Positions 26,596 through 32,139 of a DNA stretch of 50,798 bases are shown in pieces. The stretch's first letter is position 1, and the number at the start of each line of letters is the position of its first letter. The stretch lies in assembly GCA_964576745.1 (NCBI GenBank), contig CAZNUY010000001.1, forward strand, positions 1 to 50,798, written 5' to 3'. This stretch comes from an uncultured Candidatus Saccharibacteria bacterium (GTDB lineage Bacteria; Patescibacteriota; Minisyncoccia; Phycocordibacterales; PALSA-1337). Below the pieces are notes generated by a model that saw only the letters and a program-made list of their open reading frames with translations, did no database searches and had not been told where the DNA came from. Both the position numbers and the translations under genes were made by a program.

Positions 26596-28098
26596 ATGTC
26601 AAAAAATGTATTATCTCTCAACTATATAAATGCCAAGAAATTCTTTTTAGAACAAGAGAGTTATACGAATATTGATCTGCCCCCTTATTTTACATTCGGT
26701 AAAACTATTTCAGCGATAAATACTAAATTAAATAATTCAGAGATCTCTTTCAATGAATTAAAATCAGCAAAAACCAACGAGACGATTAACCATGTCCTGT
26801 ATGGCAATAAGGACGGTAAATACGCTTGGAGAAAGTACGAGTTAATACATCCTCTTGTCTATGTCTCTTTAGTAAACATTATCACTCAAAAAGATAATTG
26901 GAAGGTTGTACAAGATAGATTTAAGGAATTTCAGAAAGATAAGAGAATCGAATGCGAAAGTATTCCTGTGCTTAAAGATCACAAATCCAAGCAAAAAGCG
27001 GCACAGATCTCACAATGGGTTGAGAGTGTTGAAAAGAAATCCATCACATTATCATTAGATTATAAGTTTTTGTATCAAACTGATATAACTGATTGCTATG
27101 GGTCTATTTATACCCACTCAATACCATGGGCGATTCATACAAAGACTATCTCGAAAACAAAACGCAATTATGGTGATTTGTTTGGAAACAAAATCGATCA
27201 CCATATTCAGGCAATGAATTGTGGCCAGACAAACGGTATTCCTCAAGGAAGTATACTGATGGACTTTATAGCTGAGATGATTCTTGGTTATGCTGACACA
27301 AAGATCTCAGAAAAATTAAATATTCAATTGAATGGTAAAAAATTTCACATACTCAGATATAGAGATGATTATAGGATTTTTGTGAATGATATTACTGATG
27401 GCGATACTATTTTGAAATGTATAAGTGAAGTACTAATAGATTTTGGTTTTCGTCTAAATACAAGTAAAACCTGTCATTGCGACGATATAATTTCTGGTTC
27501 GATCAAGCCGGATAAACTTGATGCTATAAAATACGGAAGTGTGCCAAAGAAATTTTCGAAAAAAGAGTTAATGAATCAATTATTGATCGTTCAGCAAATC
27601 AGCAAAGATTATCCAAATGCCGGTACATTGAAGGTTAGGATGTCAAAAATCATCGATGCTGTTAAGGTTAAAGATTTCTATTATCAGCAAGAATTTATAG
27701 CCGGTTTACTGACTGATATTGCATACAATAACCCGAATACGTTTCCCGTTGTGGCATCGCTGTTATCAAGCTGTATTTCCAAGTTAACTTTCAAATCAAA
27801 AAAAGAAATCCTATCAAGAATCGAAGACAAAATGTGTAATCTATCAAATATCGGATTGATAGAAATATGGATGCAAAGAATTGCTATTAGATTCAAATTC
27901 AAGCTTTCTTTAAAAGAAAAGCTGTGCAAACTTGTGTATGGTTCGAGTGATCAGATATTTGTTAATACATGGATTACTGATGCCGCAATCAAAAAACTTA
28001 TAGAAGATAGATCATTTATAAATAAGGCGAAGATTGGAAAGATGAAAATAGTTATCGACAAGCGAGAAGTTCAATTATTCAATAATTATTACAATTAA
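26596..28098 (+). CDS. reverse transcriptase, non-DGR, non-retron style (UG/Abi-like) with a helical C-terminal region
   Basis: RT motifs DITDCYGSIYTHSIPWAI, GIPQGSILMDFIAEMIL, ILRYRDDYRIFV (YxDD variant) and FRLNTSKT, followed by about 190 aa of C-terminal helical sequence without a recognised domain. Confidence 0.8.
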   Translation: MSKNVLSLNYINAKKFFLEQESYTNIDLPPYFTFGKTISAINTKLNNSEISFNELKSAKTNETINHVLYGNKDGKYAWRKYELIHPLVYVSLVNIITQKDNWKVVQDRFKEFQKDKRIECESIPVLKDHKSKQKAAQISQWVESVEKKSITLSLDYKFLYQTDITDCYGSIYTHSIPWAIHTKTISKTKRNYGDLFGNKIDHHIQAMNCGQTNGIPQGSILMDFIAEMILGYADTKISEKLNIQLNGKKFHILRYRDDYRIFVNDITDGDTILKCISEVLIDFGFRLNTSKTCHCDDIISGSIKPDKLDAIKYGSVPKKFSKKELMNQLLIVQQISKDYPNAGTLKVRMSKIIDAVKVKDFYYQQEFIAGLLTDIAYNNPNTFPVVASLLSSCISKLTFKSKKEILSRIEDKMCNLSNIGLIEIWMQRIAIRFKFKLSLKEKLCKLVYGSSDQIFVNTWITDAAIKKLIEDRSFINKAKIGKMKIVIDKREVQLFNNYYN

Positions 28099-28104
28099 TT
28101 TTTT

Positions 28105-28854
28105 ATGTCAGAATATTACAAAGCAAGCAGGGGTCCAGCCTGGAACTATGGCGGTCAAAATTGGAAATTGAGTAGATCAAAGATTGATTTATTCTTAGAA
28201 TGTCCAAGATGTTTTTATATCGACAATAAACTTGGAGTAAAGAGGGTCCCGCCATTTCCTTTTTCAATCAATAGTGCAGTCGACCATCTATTAAAGCAGG
28301 AATTTGATTCTCTGAGGATTAAGAATGAGCAACATCCTCTTCAGAAGGAATATGGTATCGATGCTCGACCTGTATCTCATGAGGAATTGGATGAGTGGCG
28401 TAGGAATTTTGGTGGTATTAGATATATACACGAACCAACTGGTCTAATAGTGACTGGTGCGATTGACGATCTTTGGATTAATAGTAAAGGTGAATATATT
28501 GTTGTTGATTACAAGGCAACTGCTAAAGATGAAGCTGTAAAAGCATTGGACAAAGAATGGCAGGATGGCTACAAAAGACAAATGGAAGTATATCAGTGGT
28601 TATTAAGAATGAATGGGTTAAAAGTATCGAACACAGGTTATTTCGTTTATTGCACAGGAAAGATGGACAGAAAAGCTTTTGATAAACGCATAGATTTTGA
28701 TGTGAATCTTATCGAATACGTGGGTAATGATTCGTGGGTGGAAGATACTCTATTTAAAATTAAAAAATGTCTTGACGGTGATAAAATCCCAGCTTCCAGC
28801 CATGATTGTGATTGGTGTAATTATTGGAATGCTAGAAGGGGGATTGAGCCTTAA
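28105..28854 (+). CDS. Cas4/RecB-like PD-(D/E)XK nuclease with a four-Cys cluster
   Basis: N-terminal CPRCFY, core GAIDDLW...YIVVDYKAT, QMEVYQWLL (QxxxY) and C-terminal CDWCNYW. Confidence 0.7.
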   Translation: MSEYYKASRGPAWNYGGQNWKLSRSKIDLFLECPRCFYIDNKLGVKRVPPFPFSINSAVDHLLKQEFDSLRIKNEQHPLQKEYGIDARPVSHEELDEWRRNFGGIRYIHEPTGLIVTGAIDDLWINSKGEYIVVDYKATAKDEAVKALDKEWQDGYKRQMEVYQWLLRMNGLKVSNTGYFVYCTGKMDRKAFDKRIDFDVNLIEYVGNDSWVEDTLFKIKKCLDGDKIPASSHDCDWCNYWNARRGIEP

Positions 28855-29043: not shown

Positions 29044-29754
29044 ATGGAAACCATGCTCAGCAAAGCGCTCCGCGAATTCACGACCGGACCGCTCAATCAG
29101 CTCATCGTGAACCTCGGTGGCCAGGACGGCGACCAGTGGGAACAACAGCTCAAGCAGTTCCTCCGCAAGGAGCCCTGCTGGACCAATGGCAACGTCACGC
29201 AAGTGGCGCAGCCGAAACCCACACCCTCGATCCTCGAGCTCGTCTCGACGGTCGTGGTCCCCGCAACCACCGTCAACCTCGTCGCCAAAGAGAAGTTCGT
29301 TCGTGACACTGGCCGCAAAGCCAAGGTCAAGATCAGCTATCTCGGCGACAACTTCACCGAATGGTTCCTCTCGGGCTCCGGCAAAACCGAAAACCCGATC
29401 AGCGAACAGACGCTCCGCTACCACAAGTTGCGGCAGTCCTCGGTGGACGGTCCCATCATCGCTGAACTCGGCGGTGTGGAGAAGTCGGAAACGACGCTCT
29501 CTGAGATGTTTGCCCTCATGGAAAAGCAGGGCAAGGGCGAAGACGGTGTTCTCCTGAACAACGGCTACGCTAACATCTTCTACATCAAGGACCAAAATGG
29601 TGTGCTTCGCGCGGTCCTCGTGTTCTGGCGCGACGACGGCTGGTGCGTCTTTGCGTACTCCGTCGGGTACCCGCGCAGGTGGGATGATGGCTACCAGGTG
29701 TTCTCTCGCAATTCTGTTCTCGAATCCTCGGAACCTTCGGCTCCGGCTGCCTAG
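29044..29754 (+). CDS. DGR target (variable) protein with the VR at the C-terminus
   Basis: 236-aa ORF with GC-rich codon usage. The C-terminal 38 codons are the VR copy of the TR. No signal peptide is evident. Confidence 0.85.
   Translation: METMLSKALREFTTGPLNQLIVNLGGQDGDQWEQQLKQFLRKEPCWTNGNVTQVAQPKPTPSILELVSTVVVPATTVNLVAKEKFVRDTGRKAKVKISYLGDNFTEWFLSGSGKTENPISEQTLRYHKLRQSSVDGPIIAELGGVEKSETTLSEMFALMEKQGKGEDGVLLNNGYANIFYIKDQNGVLRAVLVFWRDDGWCVFAYSVGYPRRWDDGYQVFSRNSVLESSEPSAPAA
29598..29711 (+). repeat. DGR variable repeat (VR)
   Basis: 114-nt alignment to 30076-30189 with 18 mismatches, all at positions where the TR has A. Confidence 0.92.
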
Positions 29755-29780
29755 CCTGATCCTTTGTCCCTTGGACACTT

Positions 29781-29822
29781 TGACCCTCAGTCTGCTTCGG
29801 TGGATTGGGGGTCAATTTTTTA
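29781..29822 (+). terminator. terminator-like hairpin plus T-run downstream of the target gene
   Basis: TGACCC (29781-29786) pairs with GGGTCA (29809-29814), followed by AATTTTTT. Confidence 0.45.
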
Positions 29823-30075: not shown

Positions 30076-30189
30076 TGGTGTGCTTCGCGCGGTCAACGTG
30101 AACTGGAACGACGACGGCTGGAACGTCAATGCGAACTCCGTCGAGAACCCGAACAGGTGGAATGATGGCAACCAGGTGTTCTCTCGAAA
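30076..30189 (+). repeat. DGR template repeat (TR)
   Basis: Contains 10 AAY codons in the VR reading frame, and adenines at all 18 VR-divergent positions. Confidence 0.92.
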
Positions 30190-30209
30190 CTGTTGGTTTT
30201 CTCCTCGGC

Positions 30210-30587
30210 TTAAGGTCGGGGAGTTTTTGCTTGCAAACCTTTCTTCCAGCCACCAAGTTGTCGCCCGATTTCCTCAAGTCTTCCGATTAGGTCCGAGTAT
30301 GTATCAGTTGGAATAATTTTACTTTCCCATGCGAGTTGCACAAAGAACTTCACAATATCAAGTTTTGTGATGGCTTTGTTTAATATTGGTATTTTGTGTT
30401 CAGGTGGGAGATAAGAAAGACAGAATGTGTATTCAAGTACATCAAGAAAAGCCTGTTCAATTCTGTTTCCAATTCCATACCGCTCGATTTTCGGAAAATC
30501 ACGATGGATAGAGAGCCAAAAACGATATGTCTCTTTCGATTTGAGAATTACCTGTGGTAATTCTCGGGGGGGGGGGTAATATGATCC
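30210..30587 (-). CDS. avd: Avd-like accessory variability determinant; open frame lacks a canonical start as assembled
   Basis: My own minus-strand translation, absent from the ORF track: ...KETYRFWLSIHRDFPKIERYGIGNRIEQAFLDVLE...LDIVKFFVQLAWESKIIP...LIGRLEEIGRQLGGWKKGL. It resembles the FPK..ERYG and EvGR.LG.W blocks of bAvd-family proteins. The upstream ATG (complement of 30602-30604) is out of frame across a C11 tract. Confidence 0.7.
   Translation of the reverse strand, partial: GSYYPPPRELPQVILKSKETYRFWLSIHRDFPKIERYGIGNRIEQAFLDVLEYTFCLSYLPPEHKIPILNKAITKLDIVKFFVQLAWESKIIPTDTYSDLIGRLEEIGRQLGGWKKGLQAKTPRP
30566..30576. repeat. G11/C11 homopolymer between the avd 5' region and the RT start
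   Basis: Eleven consecutive G counted on the plus strand, ending 4 nt before the ATG at 30581. Confidence 0.95.
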
Positions 30588-31585
30588 TTATTAGTATGAG
30601 TCATGAGTATAAGAATATCATATCCATCAAAAATCTATGCGATGCGTGGACCGAATTTATATGTGGCAAGAAATCTAAAAAGGACGTTGCTGAATTTTCT
30701 TTGAATCTCTCTCAAAACATTTTCAAATTGCACGAGGAGCTGCGAACAAAAACATATAGACATGGTGCATACGAAGCTTTTTCGATAAGTGATCCGAAGC
30801 CGAGAAGTATTCACAAGGCTACGGTCCGAGATAGATTATTACATCATGCTATTTACAGGATTTTGTATCCCTATTTTGATAAAAAGTTTATTTATGATTC
30901 TTATTCCTGTCGAAAGTTCAAAGGAACACATCGAGCGTTAAATCGGTTTAATGATTTCGTGATGAAAGTATCACAAAGCAATAGTAGGGCATGCTGGGTT
31001 CTGAAATGCGATGTAAGAAAGTTTTTTGCGTCTATTGATCATGAAAAACTCATTGAAATATTCGAGCGACATGTTAATGATATGGAAACGATCTGGCTTG
31101 TAGAGCGCATTGTTGAGAGTTTTCAAAGTACTGGTCCAGGAAAGGGTTTGCCTTTAGGTAATCTGACCTCGCAACTCTTGGTAAATGTTTACATGAATGA
31201 GTTCGACCAGTTTGTGAAGCACAAGCTCAAAGCTAAGTATTATATTCGGTATGCCGATGACTTCGTTATTATTCATCATGAGAAAGGTGTGTTGGTGGAT
31301 GTACTGCCAAAGGTTCAGAGCTTTCTCAGTGAACAGCTAAAGCTGTCTCTTCATCCAGATAAAGTGTTTATTAAGACAGCTTCATCAGGTGTAGATTTTC
31401 TGGGCTGGGTCCATTTTCCGCACCATCGAGTGATACGGACAACAACAAAAAATCGTATGTTCAAGAAAATCAAAGATTCTCAAGAAAAGCCGGAAGTTGT
31501 TCAATCGTATCTCGGGCTTTTGAGTCATGGAAATGGGTGGAATTTACAAAAGAGGATTAAGCCCAAGATAGGCAGAGTTCATTAG
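30581..31585 (+). CDS. DGR-type reverse transcriptase
   Basis: LPLGNLTSQLLVNVYM (the SQ signature of DGR RTs), IRYADDFVI (YxDD), DPKPRSIHKATVRDRLLHHAIY and VDFLGW. The track ORF begins at the GTG at 30554; ATG 30581 or 30596 is more likely. Confidence 0.9.
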   Translation: MILISMSHEYKNIISIKNLCDAWTEFICGKKSKKDVAEFSLNLSQNIFKLHEELRTKTYRHGAYEAFSISDPKPRSIHKATVRDRLLHHAIYRILYPYFDKKFIYDSYSCRKFKGTHRALNRFNDFVMKVSQSNSRACWVLKCDVRKFFASIDHEKLIEIFERHVNDMETIWLVERIVESFQSTGPGKGLPLGNLTSQLLVNVYMNEFDQFVKHKLKAKYYIRYADDFVIIHHEKGVLVDVLPKVQSFLSEQLKLSLHPDKVFIKTASSGVDFLGWVHFPHHRVIRTTTKNRMFKKIKDSQEKPEVVQSYLGLLSHGNGWNLQKRIKPKIGRVH

Positions 31586-31680: not shown

Positions 31681-31896
31681 ATGATTTCAAAACAAGCGTT
31701 AGAAGAATTCAAAGAGATTTGGCGACAGGAAAACCCTGGCCAAGATATCGACGACGCAACCGCAATGGATCAGGCGGTAGCTTTGCTTACTCTCATGGAC
31801 ACAGTCTACAGGCCGGTGAAGAAAGAGTGGCTGGAAAAGTATAAGAGTGAAGTGGCCAAAGAAAATAGTGAAGGCAAGGGTGGGGTAACTCAATAA
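31681..31896 (+). CDS. small conserved element protein (paralog of 12546-12806)
   Basis: 71 aa from the ATG at 31681; alignable to the other copy over about 45 residues. Confidence 0.5.
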   Translation: MISKQALEEFKEIWRQENPGQDIDDATAMDQAVALLTLMDTVYRPVKKEWLEKYKSEVAKENSEGKGGVTQ

Positions 31897-31944
31897 TTTT
31901 ACCCGTAATAACGGGAAATTAACGGGAAGGCACTTTTGCATGAA

Positions 31945-31967
31945 ATAGTGAGTGAGAGTGTGGGGTA
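31945..31967. repeat. island-specific motif copy C (ATAGTGAG-N5-GTGTGGGGTA)
   Basis: Exact match to both half-motifs. Confidence 0.7.
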
Positions 31968-32139
31968 AAGACTGATAAAACAGTTAAATAACAGTCTTTG
32001 ACTTATAGATCAAGAATTACAAAACAGAGTAGGTGATTGCCGTTAAAAAACGGTGAAAAAACGGGTGCGAGTCACCATTAGAAAAAGGTGAAAAAATGGG
32101 CAGACCAACTTTCAGCAGAAATTTCGGTGGTTCGATAGA

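What the first reader, a model, noticed from the sequence alone, without database searches (positions are those of the whole stretch)
30540..30610. G11/C11 homopolymer breaks the avd frame and sits at the RT ribosome-binding region: possible phase switch for the DGR
- **Orientation:** the Avd-like frame (minus strand, stop at 30210-30212) is open up to 30587 but contains no ATG, GTG or TTG near its 5' end.
- **Frameshift:** an ATG at complement 30602-30604 (MTHTNKDHITPPP...) is separated from it by the C11 run (plus-strand G11, 30566-30576). With 11 C this ATG frame stops after 18 codons. With 12 C (or 9 C) it would read straight into the Avd frame, giving a protein of about 131 aa.
- **Effect on the RT:** the same tract ends 4 nt upstream of the RT ATG at 30581, so length changes could also alter RT translation initiation.
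- **Architecture:** avd is antisense to TR and RT and would overlap the RT 5' end head-to-head. This is not the canonical co-directional avd-TR-RT layout.
- **Interpretations:** this is either slipped-strand phase variation that switches mutagenic homing on and off, or a homopolymer assembly error.
Basis: partly seen in the sequence, partly recalled or inferred. Interest (0 to 1): 0.7.

Follow-up and report, generated by a model that had tools for sequence, protein, structure and literature searches.

The report
Repeat-tract switch in DGR avd gene
A run of eleven G/C bases breaks the reading frame of a helper gene (avd) that a bacterial targeted-mutation machine (a DGR) probably needs. The same kind of unstable repeat sits at the same spot in about 95% of roughly 130 related elements, so it looks like a built-in on/off switch for self-mutation rather than a sequencing error.

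Summary
**Observation:** confirmed in every detail. G11 (30566-30576) separates an ATG leader (complement 30604-30577) from an intact Avd body (30565-30210). C9 or C12 would fuse them.

**Conservation:**
- In 129 non-redundant related Patescibacteria DGR loci, avd is always divergent from the RT.
- About 95% carry a simple-sequence repeat at the same position: mostly C6-C14, otherwise (CT)n, (CA)n or (GCCA)n.
- The frame is ON in 42 loci and OFF in 87, which is random phase. The Avd body is intact in all 87 OFF loci.

**Polymorphism:** three near-identical poly-C lineages, including the window's own, differ in tract length.
- The window's lineage has 11, 9 or an interrupted 15.
- A second lineage has 8 or 9.
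- A third has 6, 7, 8 or 10.

**Leader is coding:**
- The RT His codon opposite the avd ATG is CAT in 91/94 loci.
- RT codons whose antisense is a stop are absent over the leader (0/119, against 26% elsewhere).

**Reading:** a slipped-strand contingency switch on Avd, and by inference on DGR mutagenesis. I found no prior description.

**Not supported or not shown:**
- A role as the RT ribosome-binding site is not supported.
- Two short (CT)n lineages showed no polymorphism.
- No read-level or expression data could be examined.

The parts
30566..30576 (-). Simple-sequence repeat: C11 on the avd strand (G11 on the + strand). It lies between the avd leader and the Avd body. C11 puts the leader out of frame; C9 or C12 would be in frame.
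   Evidence: - Searches give the sequence.
- It is the only G/C run of 6 nt or more in the window.
- A homologous tract is present in about 95% of 129 related loci.
- Its length is polymorphic in near-identical lineages.
30577..30604 (-). The avd leader: ATG (30604-30602) plus 9 codons (MTHTNKDHIT) running into the tract. It is antisense to, and in codon register with, the first 8 RT codons.
   Evidence: - One search gives the translation.
- Homologues have intact N-termini of the form M[TI]H..K..ITPP(P)RELPQ.
- The RT His codon opposite the ATG is CAT in 91/94 loci, against 56% elsewhere in the RT. Antisense-stop codons are 0/119 over the leader, against 26% elsewhere.
30548..30565 (-). Out-of-frame tail of the leader ORF in the C11 state (ENYHR, then TAA at 30550-30548). 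It overlaps the first Avd body codons (RELPQV).
30210..30566 (-). Avd body, a four-helix-bundle accessory variability determinant, from the R of RELPQVILK to the stop at 30212-30210. It is intact but has no start codon of its own in its first 71 codons (first is the GTG at 30353).
   Evidence: - Pfam bAvd 45.6 bits and NCBIfam DivGenRetAVD 61 bits, the latter below its cutoff of 80.
- Homologues up to 90% identical.
- The first in-frame ATG/GTG/TTG is a GTG at 30353.
30581..31585 (+). DGR reverse transcriptase (334 aa, with YADD in YIRYADDF). An alternative start exists at ATG 30596 (MSHEYK).
   Evidence: - RVT_1 at 94 bits.
- Homologues up to 96% identical.
- N-termini of homologues.
30076..30189 (+). 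Template repeat (TR).
   Evidence: Direct repeat with the VR at 84% identity. Mismatches are concentrated at TR adenines: A>T 9, A>C 5, A>G 5.
29598..29711 (+). Variable repeat (VR) at the 3' end of the target gene 29044-29754 (236 aa, no Pfam match).
30201..30223 (+). GC-rich hairpin followed by a T-run, directly after the TR and overlapping the avd stop codon. It is a possible terminator of the TR transcript, of avd, or of both.
   Evidence: Consensus scan only. No functional evidence.

Best explanation
**What it is.** The C11/G11 tract is a hypermutable simple-sequence repeat built into the 5' coding region of avd. It lies between a short ATG leader, which overlaps the RT start head-to-head, and the four-helix-bundle body of Avd.

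**How it works.** Slipped-strand mispairing during replication changes the tract length.
- Lengths that are in frame (for this lineage C6, C9, C12 and so on) give full-length Avd of about 130 aa.
- Other lengths end the leader after a few codons and leave the Avd body without a start codon.
- In the DGR studied experimentally (Bordetella phage BPP-1), Avd is required for mutagenic cDNA synthesis. The tract would therefore act as a heritable, reversible, stochastic ON/OFF switch for DGR diversification of the target gene.
- The window's copy is in an OFF state (C11).

**Shown here.**
- The anatomy of the locus.
- Conservation of the tract's position.
- Length polymorphism in three poly-C lineages.
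- Random frame distribution with intact Avd bodies.
- Selection that keeps the leader an ATG-started open frame.

**Inferred, not shown.**
- That switching is frequent and reversible within a population.
- That OFF genotypes make no functional Avd.
- That Avd is essential for this clade's DGRs.
For: 1. **The upstream ATG and tract are the normal Avd N-terminus.** Intact homologues read M[TI]H..K..ITPP(P)RELPQVILK. The window lineage's own in-frame form exists: P0257, 130 aa, with C9 in L101 and L102.

2. **The tract is conserved in position.**
   - In 129 non-redundant loci from metagenomes and GTDB Patescibacteria genomes, avd is always divergent from the RT. About 95% carry a repeat ending 33-42 nt before Avd profile position 1 in most loci.
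   - The tract-to-RT-start distance varies from -14 to +37 nt.

3. **The repeat class changes while the position stays.** C6-C14 is the commonest form. (CT)n, (CA)n and (GCCA)n also occur, as do composites such as C11+(CT)n in L046. A second Avd subfamily with 931 hits shows (SL)2-5.5 or PPP(P) N-termini.

4. **Length is polymorphic between near-identical loci with identical 48-nt and 49-nt flanks.**
   - Group A (the window's lineage): C11 x3, C9 x2, interrupted 15 nt x3.
   - Group B (one aquifer population, 19 contigs, 98.6-100% identical): C8 x8 and C9 x11, two of the C9 contigs carrying another nearby 1-nt indel. The tract is the only recurrent indel. The only other homopolymer of 7 nt or more (T7) does not vary.
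   - Group C (a single assembly pipeline): C10 x3, C8, C7, C6.

5. **Phase is random.** Of the 129 loci, 42 are ON and 87 OFF, or 32.6% ON. In the GTDB set alone the states split 24 ON, 19 OFF in one alternative frame and 21 in the other.

6. **The Avd body is never degraded.** Its ORF is intact at 113-135 aa in 86 of the 87 OFF loci and 195 aa in the other, with no premature stop in any, so these are not pseudogenes.

7. **The leader is kept as an open, ATG-started frame (a non-circular test).**
   - The RT His codon opposite the leader ATG is CAT in 91/94 loci, against 758/1348 elsewhere in the RT (p = 3e-18).
   - TTA, CTA and TCA are 0/119 over the leader, against 1321/5161 elsewhere (p = 1e-15).

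8. **Relatives without a usable repeat are mostly in frame.**
   - Three repeat-free relatives with divergent avd (L192, L193, L195) have uninterrupted ATG-started Avd. In L192 and L193 the ATG lies at the same antisense-His position.
   - The interrupted tract in L103-105 is in frame.
   - Short tracts (C6-7) are 4 ON and 2 OFF.

9. **The DGR shows signs of activity.** TR-to-VR differences fall at TR adenines. In group B, 47 of the 65 substitutions lie in the VR.
Against: - **No reads were examined.** Within-population heterogeneity, switching rate and reversibility have not been observed.
- **Polymorphism was not universal.** Two short (CT)n lineages showed none: 13 nt in 13/13 contigs and 17 nt (OFF) in 9/9 contigs. 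The OFF lineage is stably OFF at consensus level.
- **Random phase has more than one explanation.** One-third ON is also what is expected if phase does not matter, for example if RNA polymerase or ribosome slippage on long C runs supplies Avd from any genotype.
- **No link to VR diversity was found.** Consensus VRs were invariant in both the ON and the OFF (CT)n lineages. In group B the two most diverged VRs were in C9 contigs, but the numbers are too small.
- **Avd dependence is extrapolated.** The requirement for Avd comes from the Bordetella phage system (my knowledge), not from a test in this clade.
- **Pipeline confound in group B.** C8 contigs come mostly from JGI assemblies and C9 contigs mostly from ENA and Logan. 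Both pipelines gave both lengths, and group C is from a single pipeline.
Confidence: 0.7

Rival explanations
1. **Slippage-tolerant expression (a rheostat, not a switch).** RNA polymerase slips on long C/G runs, or ribosomes shift by one base on CCC-CCC-C. Every genotype therefore yields some in-frame Avd. Genomic tract length would only tune the amount.
For: - Frames are uniformly distributed (42 ON, 87 OFF) and Avd bodies stay intact in OFF loci.
- An OFF lineage is stable across 9 contigs without decay.
- Tracts of 9-11 nt are in the length range where transcriptional slippage is known in other bacteria (my knowledge).
Against: - OFF states are just as common in (CT)n, (CA)n and (GCCA)n tracts: 9 OFF against 6 ON. 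Homopolymer-type slippage should not rescue these.
- Programmed slippage sites usually have a fixed length and a fixed out-of-frame arrangement. Here both vary.
- Interrupted tracts and repeat-free relatives are in frame.
Confidence: 0.12
2. **Assembly or sequencing error in this contig.** The true tract would be C9 or C12 and avd would be intact. Nothing biological would be happening at this locus in this genome.
For: - Homopolymers of 11 nt are error-prone.
- The nearest in-frame relatives carry C9 (L101, L102).
- No reads were available.
Against: - Two other non-identical strains, from independent assemblies and pipelines, also carry C11: L081 (95.8% identical, Logan) and L004 (87.7% identical, JGI).
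- Two-thirds of 129 independent loci are out of frame. An out-of-frame tract is therefore the norm and needs no error to explain it.
- Other homopolymers in the compared loci do not vary.
Confidence: 0.1
3. **The repeat acts on the RT side.** It would serve as the RT ribosome-binding site, as a promoter spacer, or as a 5'-UTR element of the RT or TR transcript. The avd frame effects would be incidental.
For: - In the window lineage the G run ends 4 nt before the RT ATG.
- All repeat variants are G-rich on the RT strand.
- One related genome (L171) has further G10 tracts about 12 nt upstream of other genes' ATGs.
Against: - The distance from tract to RT start is not conserved, ranging from -14 to +37 nt. 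The distance to the Avd body is conserved, at 33-42 nt to profile position 1 in most loci.
- Length changes do not alter the spacing between the 3' end of the tract and the RT ATG.
- The window's genes show no Shine-Dalgarno enrichment: 7/53 against 11/53 in the control.
- No promoter-like site flanks the tract.
- The antisense leader is under selection to stay an ATG-started ORF.
Confidence: 0.06
4. **Decaying DGR.** The frameshift would be an ordinary inactivating mutation in an element that is being lost.
For: The window's avd has no usable start codon in the C11 state.
Against: - The Avd body, RT, TR and VR are all intact.
- All 87 OFF loci keep a full-length Avd body ORF.
- The break is always at the repeat and never elsewhere, except for two contigs in group B (L082, L084).
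Confidence: 0.02

Closest known systems
Bordetella phage BPP-1 diversity-generating retroelement (mtd-avd-TR-brt)
   Same: - It has the same parts: a target gene with a C-terminal VR, a TR whose adenines are mutagenised, an Avd four-helix-bundle protein and a DGR-type RT.
   Different: - Here avd is on the opposite strand, between the TR and the RT. Its 5' end overlaps the RT start head-to-head.
- A hypermutable repeat interrupts the avd N-terminal coding region.
- No such repeat was seen in 30 phage DGR loci with co-directional or undetected avd.
Classical contingency loci: poly-G or tetranucleotide repeats in 5' coding regions (Neisseria pilC, opa and hmbR; Haemophilus lic1A, lgtC and mod; Campylobacter poly-G genes)
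   Same: - A simple-sequence repeat lies just after the start codon.
- Length is polymorphic between close relatives.
- There are one ON frame and two OFF frames.
- The ORF stays intact in OFF states.
- Related genes carry repeat units of different classes.
   Different: - The controlled gene is not a surface antigen or a restriction-modification enzyme. It is an accessory factor of a targeted hypermutation machine.
- The hosts are environmental Patescibacteria, not host-adapted pathogens.
- Switching rates have not been measured.
Phase-variable or reversible mutator switches, such as repeat-mediated mutL/mutS inactivation (recalled from my own knowledge, not checked here)
   Same: Conceptually, a reversible genetic switch turns a mutagenic state on and off.
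   Different: Those switches change the genome-wide mutation rate. This one would gate mutagenesis of a single variable region in one target gene.
Programmed transcriptional slippage or ribosomal frameshift sites (for example dnaX and IS element transposases)
   Same: A homopolymeric slippery run lies between two reading frames of one gene.
   Different: In those systems the frame relationship and run length are fixed and the shift is obligatory. Here length and frame vary freely, one-third of loci need no shift, and the run can be replaced by di- or tetranucleotide repeats.

Membership tests
Diversity-generating retroelement (DGR) | A reverse transcriptase of the DGR/group-II-like type next to a TR/VR pair | tested here: met
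   - RVT_1 at 94 bits.
- The best NCBIfam hit is the group II RT/maturase model, below its cutoff.
- The TR lies 392 nt (30190-30580) upstream of the RT.
Diversity-generating retroelement (DGR) | TR/VR repeat whose differences fall at TR adenines | tested here: met
   Within 29590-29715, 19 mismatches are at TR adenines (to T 9, C 5, G 5). The 6 others lie mostly at the 3' edge.
Diversity-generating retroelement (DGR) | The VR lies at the 3' end of a target ORF | tested here: met
   VR 29598-29711 lies within ORF 29044-29754.
Avd (bAvd, accessory variability determinant) | Sequence match to the Avd four-helix-bundle profile | tested here: met
   - Pfam PF22296 at 45.6 bits, above its cutoff of 40.
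- NCBIfam NF033474 at 61 bits, below its equivalog cutoff of 80, covering profile positions 3-104 of 104.
Avd (bAvd, accessory variability determinant) | Required partner of the RT for mutagenic cDNA synthesis | not testable with these tools
   Known for the Bordetella phage system (my knowledge). No functional data exist for this clade.
SSR-mediated phase-variable (contingency) locus | A simple-sequence repeat within the 5' coding region or promoter of the gene | tested here: met
   C11 lies between the leader ATG and the Avd body. Leader translation is supported by codon evidence.
SSR-mediated phase-variable (contingency) locus | Repeat length differs between otherwise near-identical genomes | tested here: met
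   - Met in three poly-C lineages with identical flanks: 11/9/interrupted 15, 8/9, and 6/7/8/10.
- Not seen in two short (CT)n lineages, 13/13 and 9/9 contigs.
SSR-mediated phase-variable (contingency) locus | Length changes move the gene between in-frame and out-of-frame states while the ORF stays intact | tested here: met
   42 loci are ON and 87 OFF. All 87 OFF loci keep an Avd body ORF with no premature stop, 113-135 aa in 86 and 195 aa in one.
SSR-mediated phase-variable (contingency) locus | High-frequency, reversible switching within a clonal population, with a change in phenotype | not testable with these tools
   This needs read-level tract distributions, culture or a reporter assay.
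Programmed frameshift or transcriptional slippage site | A conserved slippery run with a fixed out-of-frame relation between the two ORFs | tested here: not met
   Tract length (6-14 nt) and frame relation vary. One-third of loci are already in frame, and the run is replaced by other repeat classes.

The most novel reading that the evidence does not exclude
An entire clade of DGRs carries an evolved contingency switch in avd. Judging by record titles, the clade is restricted to Patescibacteria (CPR).
- Its likely size is hundreds to thousands of loci. One Avd subfamily alone gave 931 relatives.
- Targeted hypermutation would itself be phase-variable. Cell lineages would flip stochastically between diversifying and freezing the target protein.
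- It would be a case of second-order control of evolvability in organisms that cannot be cultured.
Probability: 0.6. Interest if true: 0.85.

Novelty: new variant of a known kind. Interest (0 to 1): 0.8.

Why it matters
- **An open question.** How DGR mutagenesis is switched on and off in nature is open. Constant mutagenesis of a working ligand-binding protein should be costly.
- **A simple proposed answer.** A repeat-tract switch in the accessory gene would be heritable and testable. It would apply to the CPR-restricted DGR clade, which is a large share of the DGRs known from groundwater and freshwater.
- **A practical marker.** The in-frame fraction of the tract in metagenomic reads could predict VR diversification in time series.
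- **An annotation fix.** Many avd genes in this clade are called as 47-115-aa fragments, and many RT genes as N-terminally extended or truncated forms, because gene callers do not expect the tract.
- **A wider reach for contingency loci.** These are best known from host-adapted pathogens. This case would place them in ultra-small environmental bacteria.

Tried and rejected
- **Promoter and terminator scan around the tract.** No promoter-like site lies next to the tract on either strand, so I did not pursue a promoter-spacer model.
- **Shine-Dalgarno test.** There is no enrichment upstream of 53 window ORFs, so I rejected the idea that the G run is the RT ribosome-binding site.
- **Alternative start for Avd downstream of the tract.** The window has no ATG, GTG or TTG in the first 71 codons of the Avd body. 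An ATT codon lies 6 codons in, but I have no support for it. Many related loci also lack any such start.
- **ON/OFF state against VR diversity.** Consensus VRs were invariant in both the ON (13 contigs) and the OFF (9 contigs) (CT)n lineages, so this was uninformative. Group B is suggestive only.
- **Dinucleotide-repeat polymorphism among near-identical loci.** None was found.
- **L023 and L027.** They carry (GCCA)n of 37 and 45 nt, but they are only 78% identical overall. They are not a near-identical pair.
- **Identical locus pairs.** Seven pairs, six 100% and one 99.96% identical, are probably the same assembly held in two collections. I removed near-identical duplicates by flanking sequence before the 129-locus tally.
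- **Literature.** Nine look-ups found no paper that connects DGR or Avd with homopolymers, simple-sequence repeats or phase-variable control. None connects Patescibacteria with phase variation.
- **Not attempted.** I did not predict a structure for Avd, because family membership was already clear from the profiles.
Full report
**1. The observation**

- G11 occupies 30566-30576 on the + strand.
- On the minus strand the Avd frame ends at the stop 30212-30210 and is open up to 30587. Its first ATG, GTG or TTG is a GTG at 30353, so only a 47-aa ORF is callable.
- An ATG at complement 30604-30602 reads MTHTNKDHITPPPENYHR and stops at 30550-30548.
- With C12 or C9 this leader runs into the Avd frame and gives 131 or 130 aa.

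The components are as stated.
- The fused protein matches Pfam bAvd (45.6 bits, cutoff 40). It also matches NCBIfam DivGenRetAVD at 61 bits, below that model's cutoff of 80, over profile positions 3-104.
- The RT (30581-31585) matches RVT_1.
- TR 30076-30189 and VR 29598-29711, in target gene 29044-29754, are 84% identical.
- Nineteen of their mismatches fall at TR adenines, the DGR hallmark.
- G11 is the only G/C run of 6 nt or more in the 50.8-kb, 37% GC window.

**2. Homologues show where Avd starts**

- A search with the repaired Avd found many intact relatives of 129-134 aa and up to 90% identity. Their N-termini read M[TI]H..K..ITPP(P)RELPQVILK.
- The upstream ATG and a short proline stretch are therefore the normal N-terminus.
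- The window lineage's own in-frame form exists as P0257, 130 aa, MTHTNKDHITPPRELPQ.
- RT gene calls from relatives often extend upstream as MVILGGGGNM or CGNSRGGGN. These are antisense readings of avd, and they are possible only when the tract is out of frame for Avd.

**3. The tract is conserved in position but not in sequence or length**

I took 80 metagenome loci (RT 58-84% identical) and 80 loci from GTDB species representatives. The record titles of the GTDB loci place nearly all of them in Patescibacteria, mostly Parcubacteria-type lineages.

- In every locus where avd could be found, it lies divergently and directly upstream of the RT.
- After removing duplicates there are 129 loci with a full Avd match. 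About 95% have a simple-sequence repeat ending 33-42 nt before Avd profile position 1 in most loci.
- Most repeats are C6-C14 on the avd strand, with the mode at 9-10.
- Others are (CT)n, (CA)n, (GCCA)n or composites such as C11+(CT)n.
- A second Avd subfamily, with 931 relatives at E <= 1e-20, shows (SL)2-5.5, PPP(P) or mixed N-termini. It also includes many truncated 104-115-aa gene calls.
- The distance from tract to RT start is not conserved, ranging from -14 to +37 nt.
- Across 686 kb of these loci there are 132 G/C runs of 8 nt or more, and 125 loci have exactly one.

Replacement of a homopolymer by di- and tetranucleotide repeats at the same site argues that the repeat as such is maintained. 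It argues against selection for proline codons or for a G-rich motif.

**4. Frame statistics**

- Of the 129 loci, 42 (32.6%) have a start codon upstream of the tract in frame with the Avd body. The other 87 do not.
- In nearly all OFF loci an ATG-started leader enters the tract in one of the other two frames.
- In the GTDB set the states split 24 ON, 19 OFF in one frame, 21 OFF in the other, and 4 unclear.
- The Avd body ORF is intact at 113-135 aa in 86 of the 87 OFF loci and 195 aa in the other, with no premature stop in any. These are not decaying genes.

**5. The leader is under selection to be translated**

This test does not depend on how I chose the leaders.
- In 94 non-redundant loci, the conserved RT His codon of the H-x-[YF] motif lies a median of about 30 nt from the tract. 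It is CAT in 91 of them.
- Elsewhere in the same RTs, His is CAT in 758 of 1348 cases (p = 3e-18). CAT is the reverse complement of ATG.
- Between the tract and that codon, Leu and Ser codons whose antisense is a stop (TTA, CTA, TCA) occur 0 times in 119. In the rest of the RT they occur 1321 times in 5161 (p = 1e-15).

The antisense frame is therefore kept as an ATG-started open frame, which fits its being the Avd N-terminus.

**6. Length polymorphism between near-identical loci**

Three lineages have identical 48-nt and 49-nt flanks around the tract but different tract lengths.

| Lineage | Source | Tract lengths |
|---|---|---|
| Group A (the window's) | JGI and Logan assemblies | C11 in the window, L081 and L004; C9 in L101 and L102; interrupted in-frame CCCTCCCCTCCCCCC in L103-105 |
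| Group B | one aquifer population, 19 contigs of 1.1-3.4 kb, 98.6-100% identical | C8 in 8 contigs; C9 in 11, two of which carry another nearby 1-nt indel that re-breaks avd |
| Group C | one assembly pipeline, six samples | C10 x3, C8, C7, C6 |

- In group B the tract is the only recurrent indel. The only other homopolymer of 7 nt or more (T7) is invariant, and 47 of the 65 substitutions lie in the VR.
- Both major pipelines produced both lengths, so the variation is not a pipeline artefact.

**7. Outgroups**

- Thirty IMG/VR DGR loci with RTs 29-36% identical have no such repeat. Where avd was detectable it is co-directional with the RT.
- Three relatives with RTs 49-59% identical (L192, L193, L195) have divergent avd and no repeat. 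Their Avd is uninterrupted and ATG-started.
- In L192 and L193 the Avd ATG is again antisense to the RT His codon.
- The repeat therefore looks like an insertion into an older head-to-head overlapping arrangement.

**8. Limits and negative results**

- Two short (CT)n lineages from the same aquifer showed no polymorphism. The 13-nt tract (ON) was found in 13/13 contigs and the 17-nt tract (OFF) in 9/9.
- Their consensus VRs were invariant, so ON/OFF state could not be tied to VR turnover.
- I could not see reads, transcripts or proteins.
- Random phase fits fast neutral switching. It also fits slippage during transcription or translation that makes genomic phase less important. That rival fails to explain the equally frequent OFF states in di- and tetranucleotide tracts: 9 OFF against 6 ON.
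- The suggested effect on RT initiation has no support.
  - Spacing from the 3' edge of the tract to the RT ATG does not change with tract length.
  - The genome shows no Shine-Dalgarno signal: 7/53 against 11/53 in the control.
  - No promoter-like site flanks the tract.

**9. Comparison with what is known**

- The element is a DGR by every feature I could test.
- The switch has the sequence-level features of a contingency locus of the Neisseria, Haemophilus and Campylobacter kind:
  - a repeat just after the start codon;
  - length polymorphism among close relatives;
  - intact ORFs in OFF states;
  - interchangeable repeat classes.
- The defining behaviour, frequent reversible switching, could not be tested.
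- Full-text searches and two key DGR surveys contain no mention of a repeat, homopolymer or frameshift in avd, or of phase-variable DGR control.
- One survey (PMC8144416) defines a CPR-restricted DGR clade. [quoted passage not shown]

**10. Verdict**

- The phase-switch interpretation is supported at the level of the whole clade.
- The window's copy is most likely a genuine OFF-state allele (C11), with roughly a 10% chance of a homopolymer miscall.
- I class it as a new variant of a known kind: known slipped-strand phase variation applied to a DGR accessory gene.
- Interest is high because it gives a testable mechanism for gating targeted hypermutation.

Noticed in passing
window 26596-28854 (+): Directly upstream of the DGR target gene lies a 500-aa AbiP2-type defence reverse transcriptase (PADLOC AbiP2, 594 bits, full length). 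It is followed by a 249-aa PD-(D/E)XK / Cas4-like nuclease. A second, unrelated RT system therefore sits next to the DGR.
   Followed up: partly
window, upstream regions of 53 ORFs of 120 aa or more: There is no Shine-Dalgarno enrichment. The base composition at -12 to -7 resembles TATAAT: A is 57% at -11, 55% at -9 and 49% at -8. This suggests that many genes may be leaderless or have very short leaders.
   Followed up: no
window 29780-29815 and 30201-30223 (+): GC-rich hairpins with T-runs lie directly after the VR and directly after the TR. The second overlaps the avd stop codon. They could be DGR target-recognition hairpins, terminators or both.
   Followed up: no
L171 3054 and 4903 (also L048 2090, L132 1160): One related Patescibacteria genome has two further G10 tracts, each about 12 nt upstream of another gene's ATG. 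One is followed by TATAAT. These may be additional phase-variable promoters or 5' regions in these bacteria.
   Followed up: no
L082 (~1294) and L084 (~1353): Two aquifer contigs carry the in-frame C9 tract plus a separate 1-nt indel nearby. One is an extra A in the leader that creates a stop. The other is a lost A in the Avd body. Each breaks avd again. They could be real second-site inactivation or assembly noise around a heterogeneous tract.
   Followed up: no
L103-L105 (JGI 3300045398, 3300045394 and 3300045378): In three samples the window lineage's tract is interrupted as CCCTCCCCTCCCCCC: 15 nt, in frame, encoding ITLPSPRELPQ. This looks like a locked-ON allele.
   Followed up: partly
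L241-L248, L238, L240: A (CT)8.5 lineage is out of frame in all 9 contigs from different samples and MAGs. Its Avd body is intact and nearly identical to that of the in-frame (CT)6.5 sister lineage. A stable OFF state without decay is not explained.
   Followed up: partly
window 31863-31888 and 31943-31968 (+): Two copies of a 26-nt direct repeat (81% identical, 80 nt apart) lie about 280 nt downstream of the RT stop. Their meaning is unknown.
   Followed up: no
public gene calls for this clade (for example P0261, P0262, P0274, P0331, P0411, P0412; RT calls P0121, P0148, P0158): Gene callers often mis-annotate these loci. Avd is reported as 47-115-aa fragments. RT is reported with antisense-avd N-terminal extensions or as 170-aa fragments, depending on tract phase.
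   Followed up: partly
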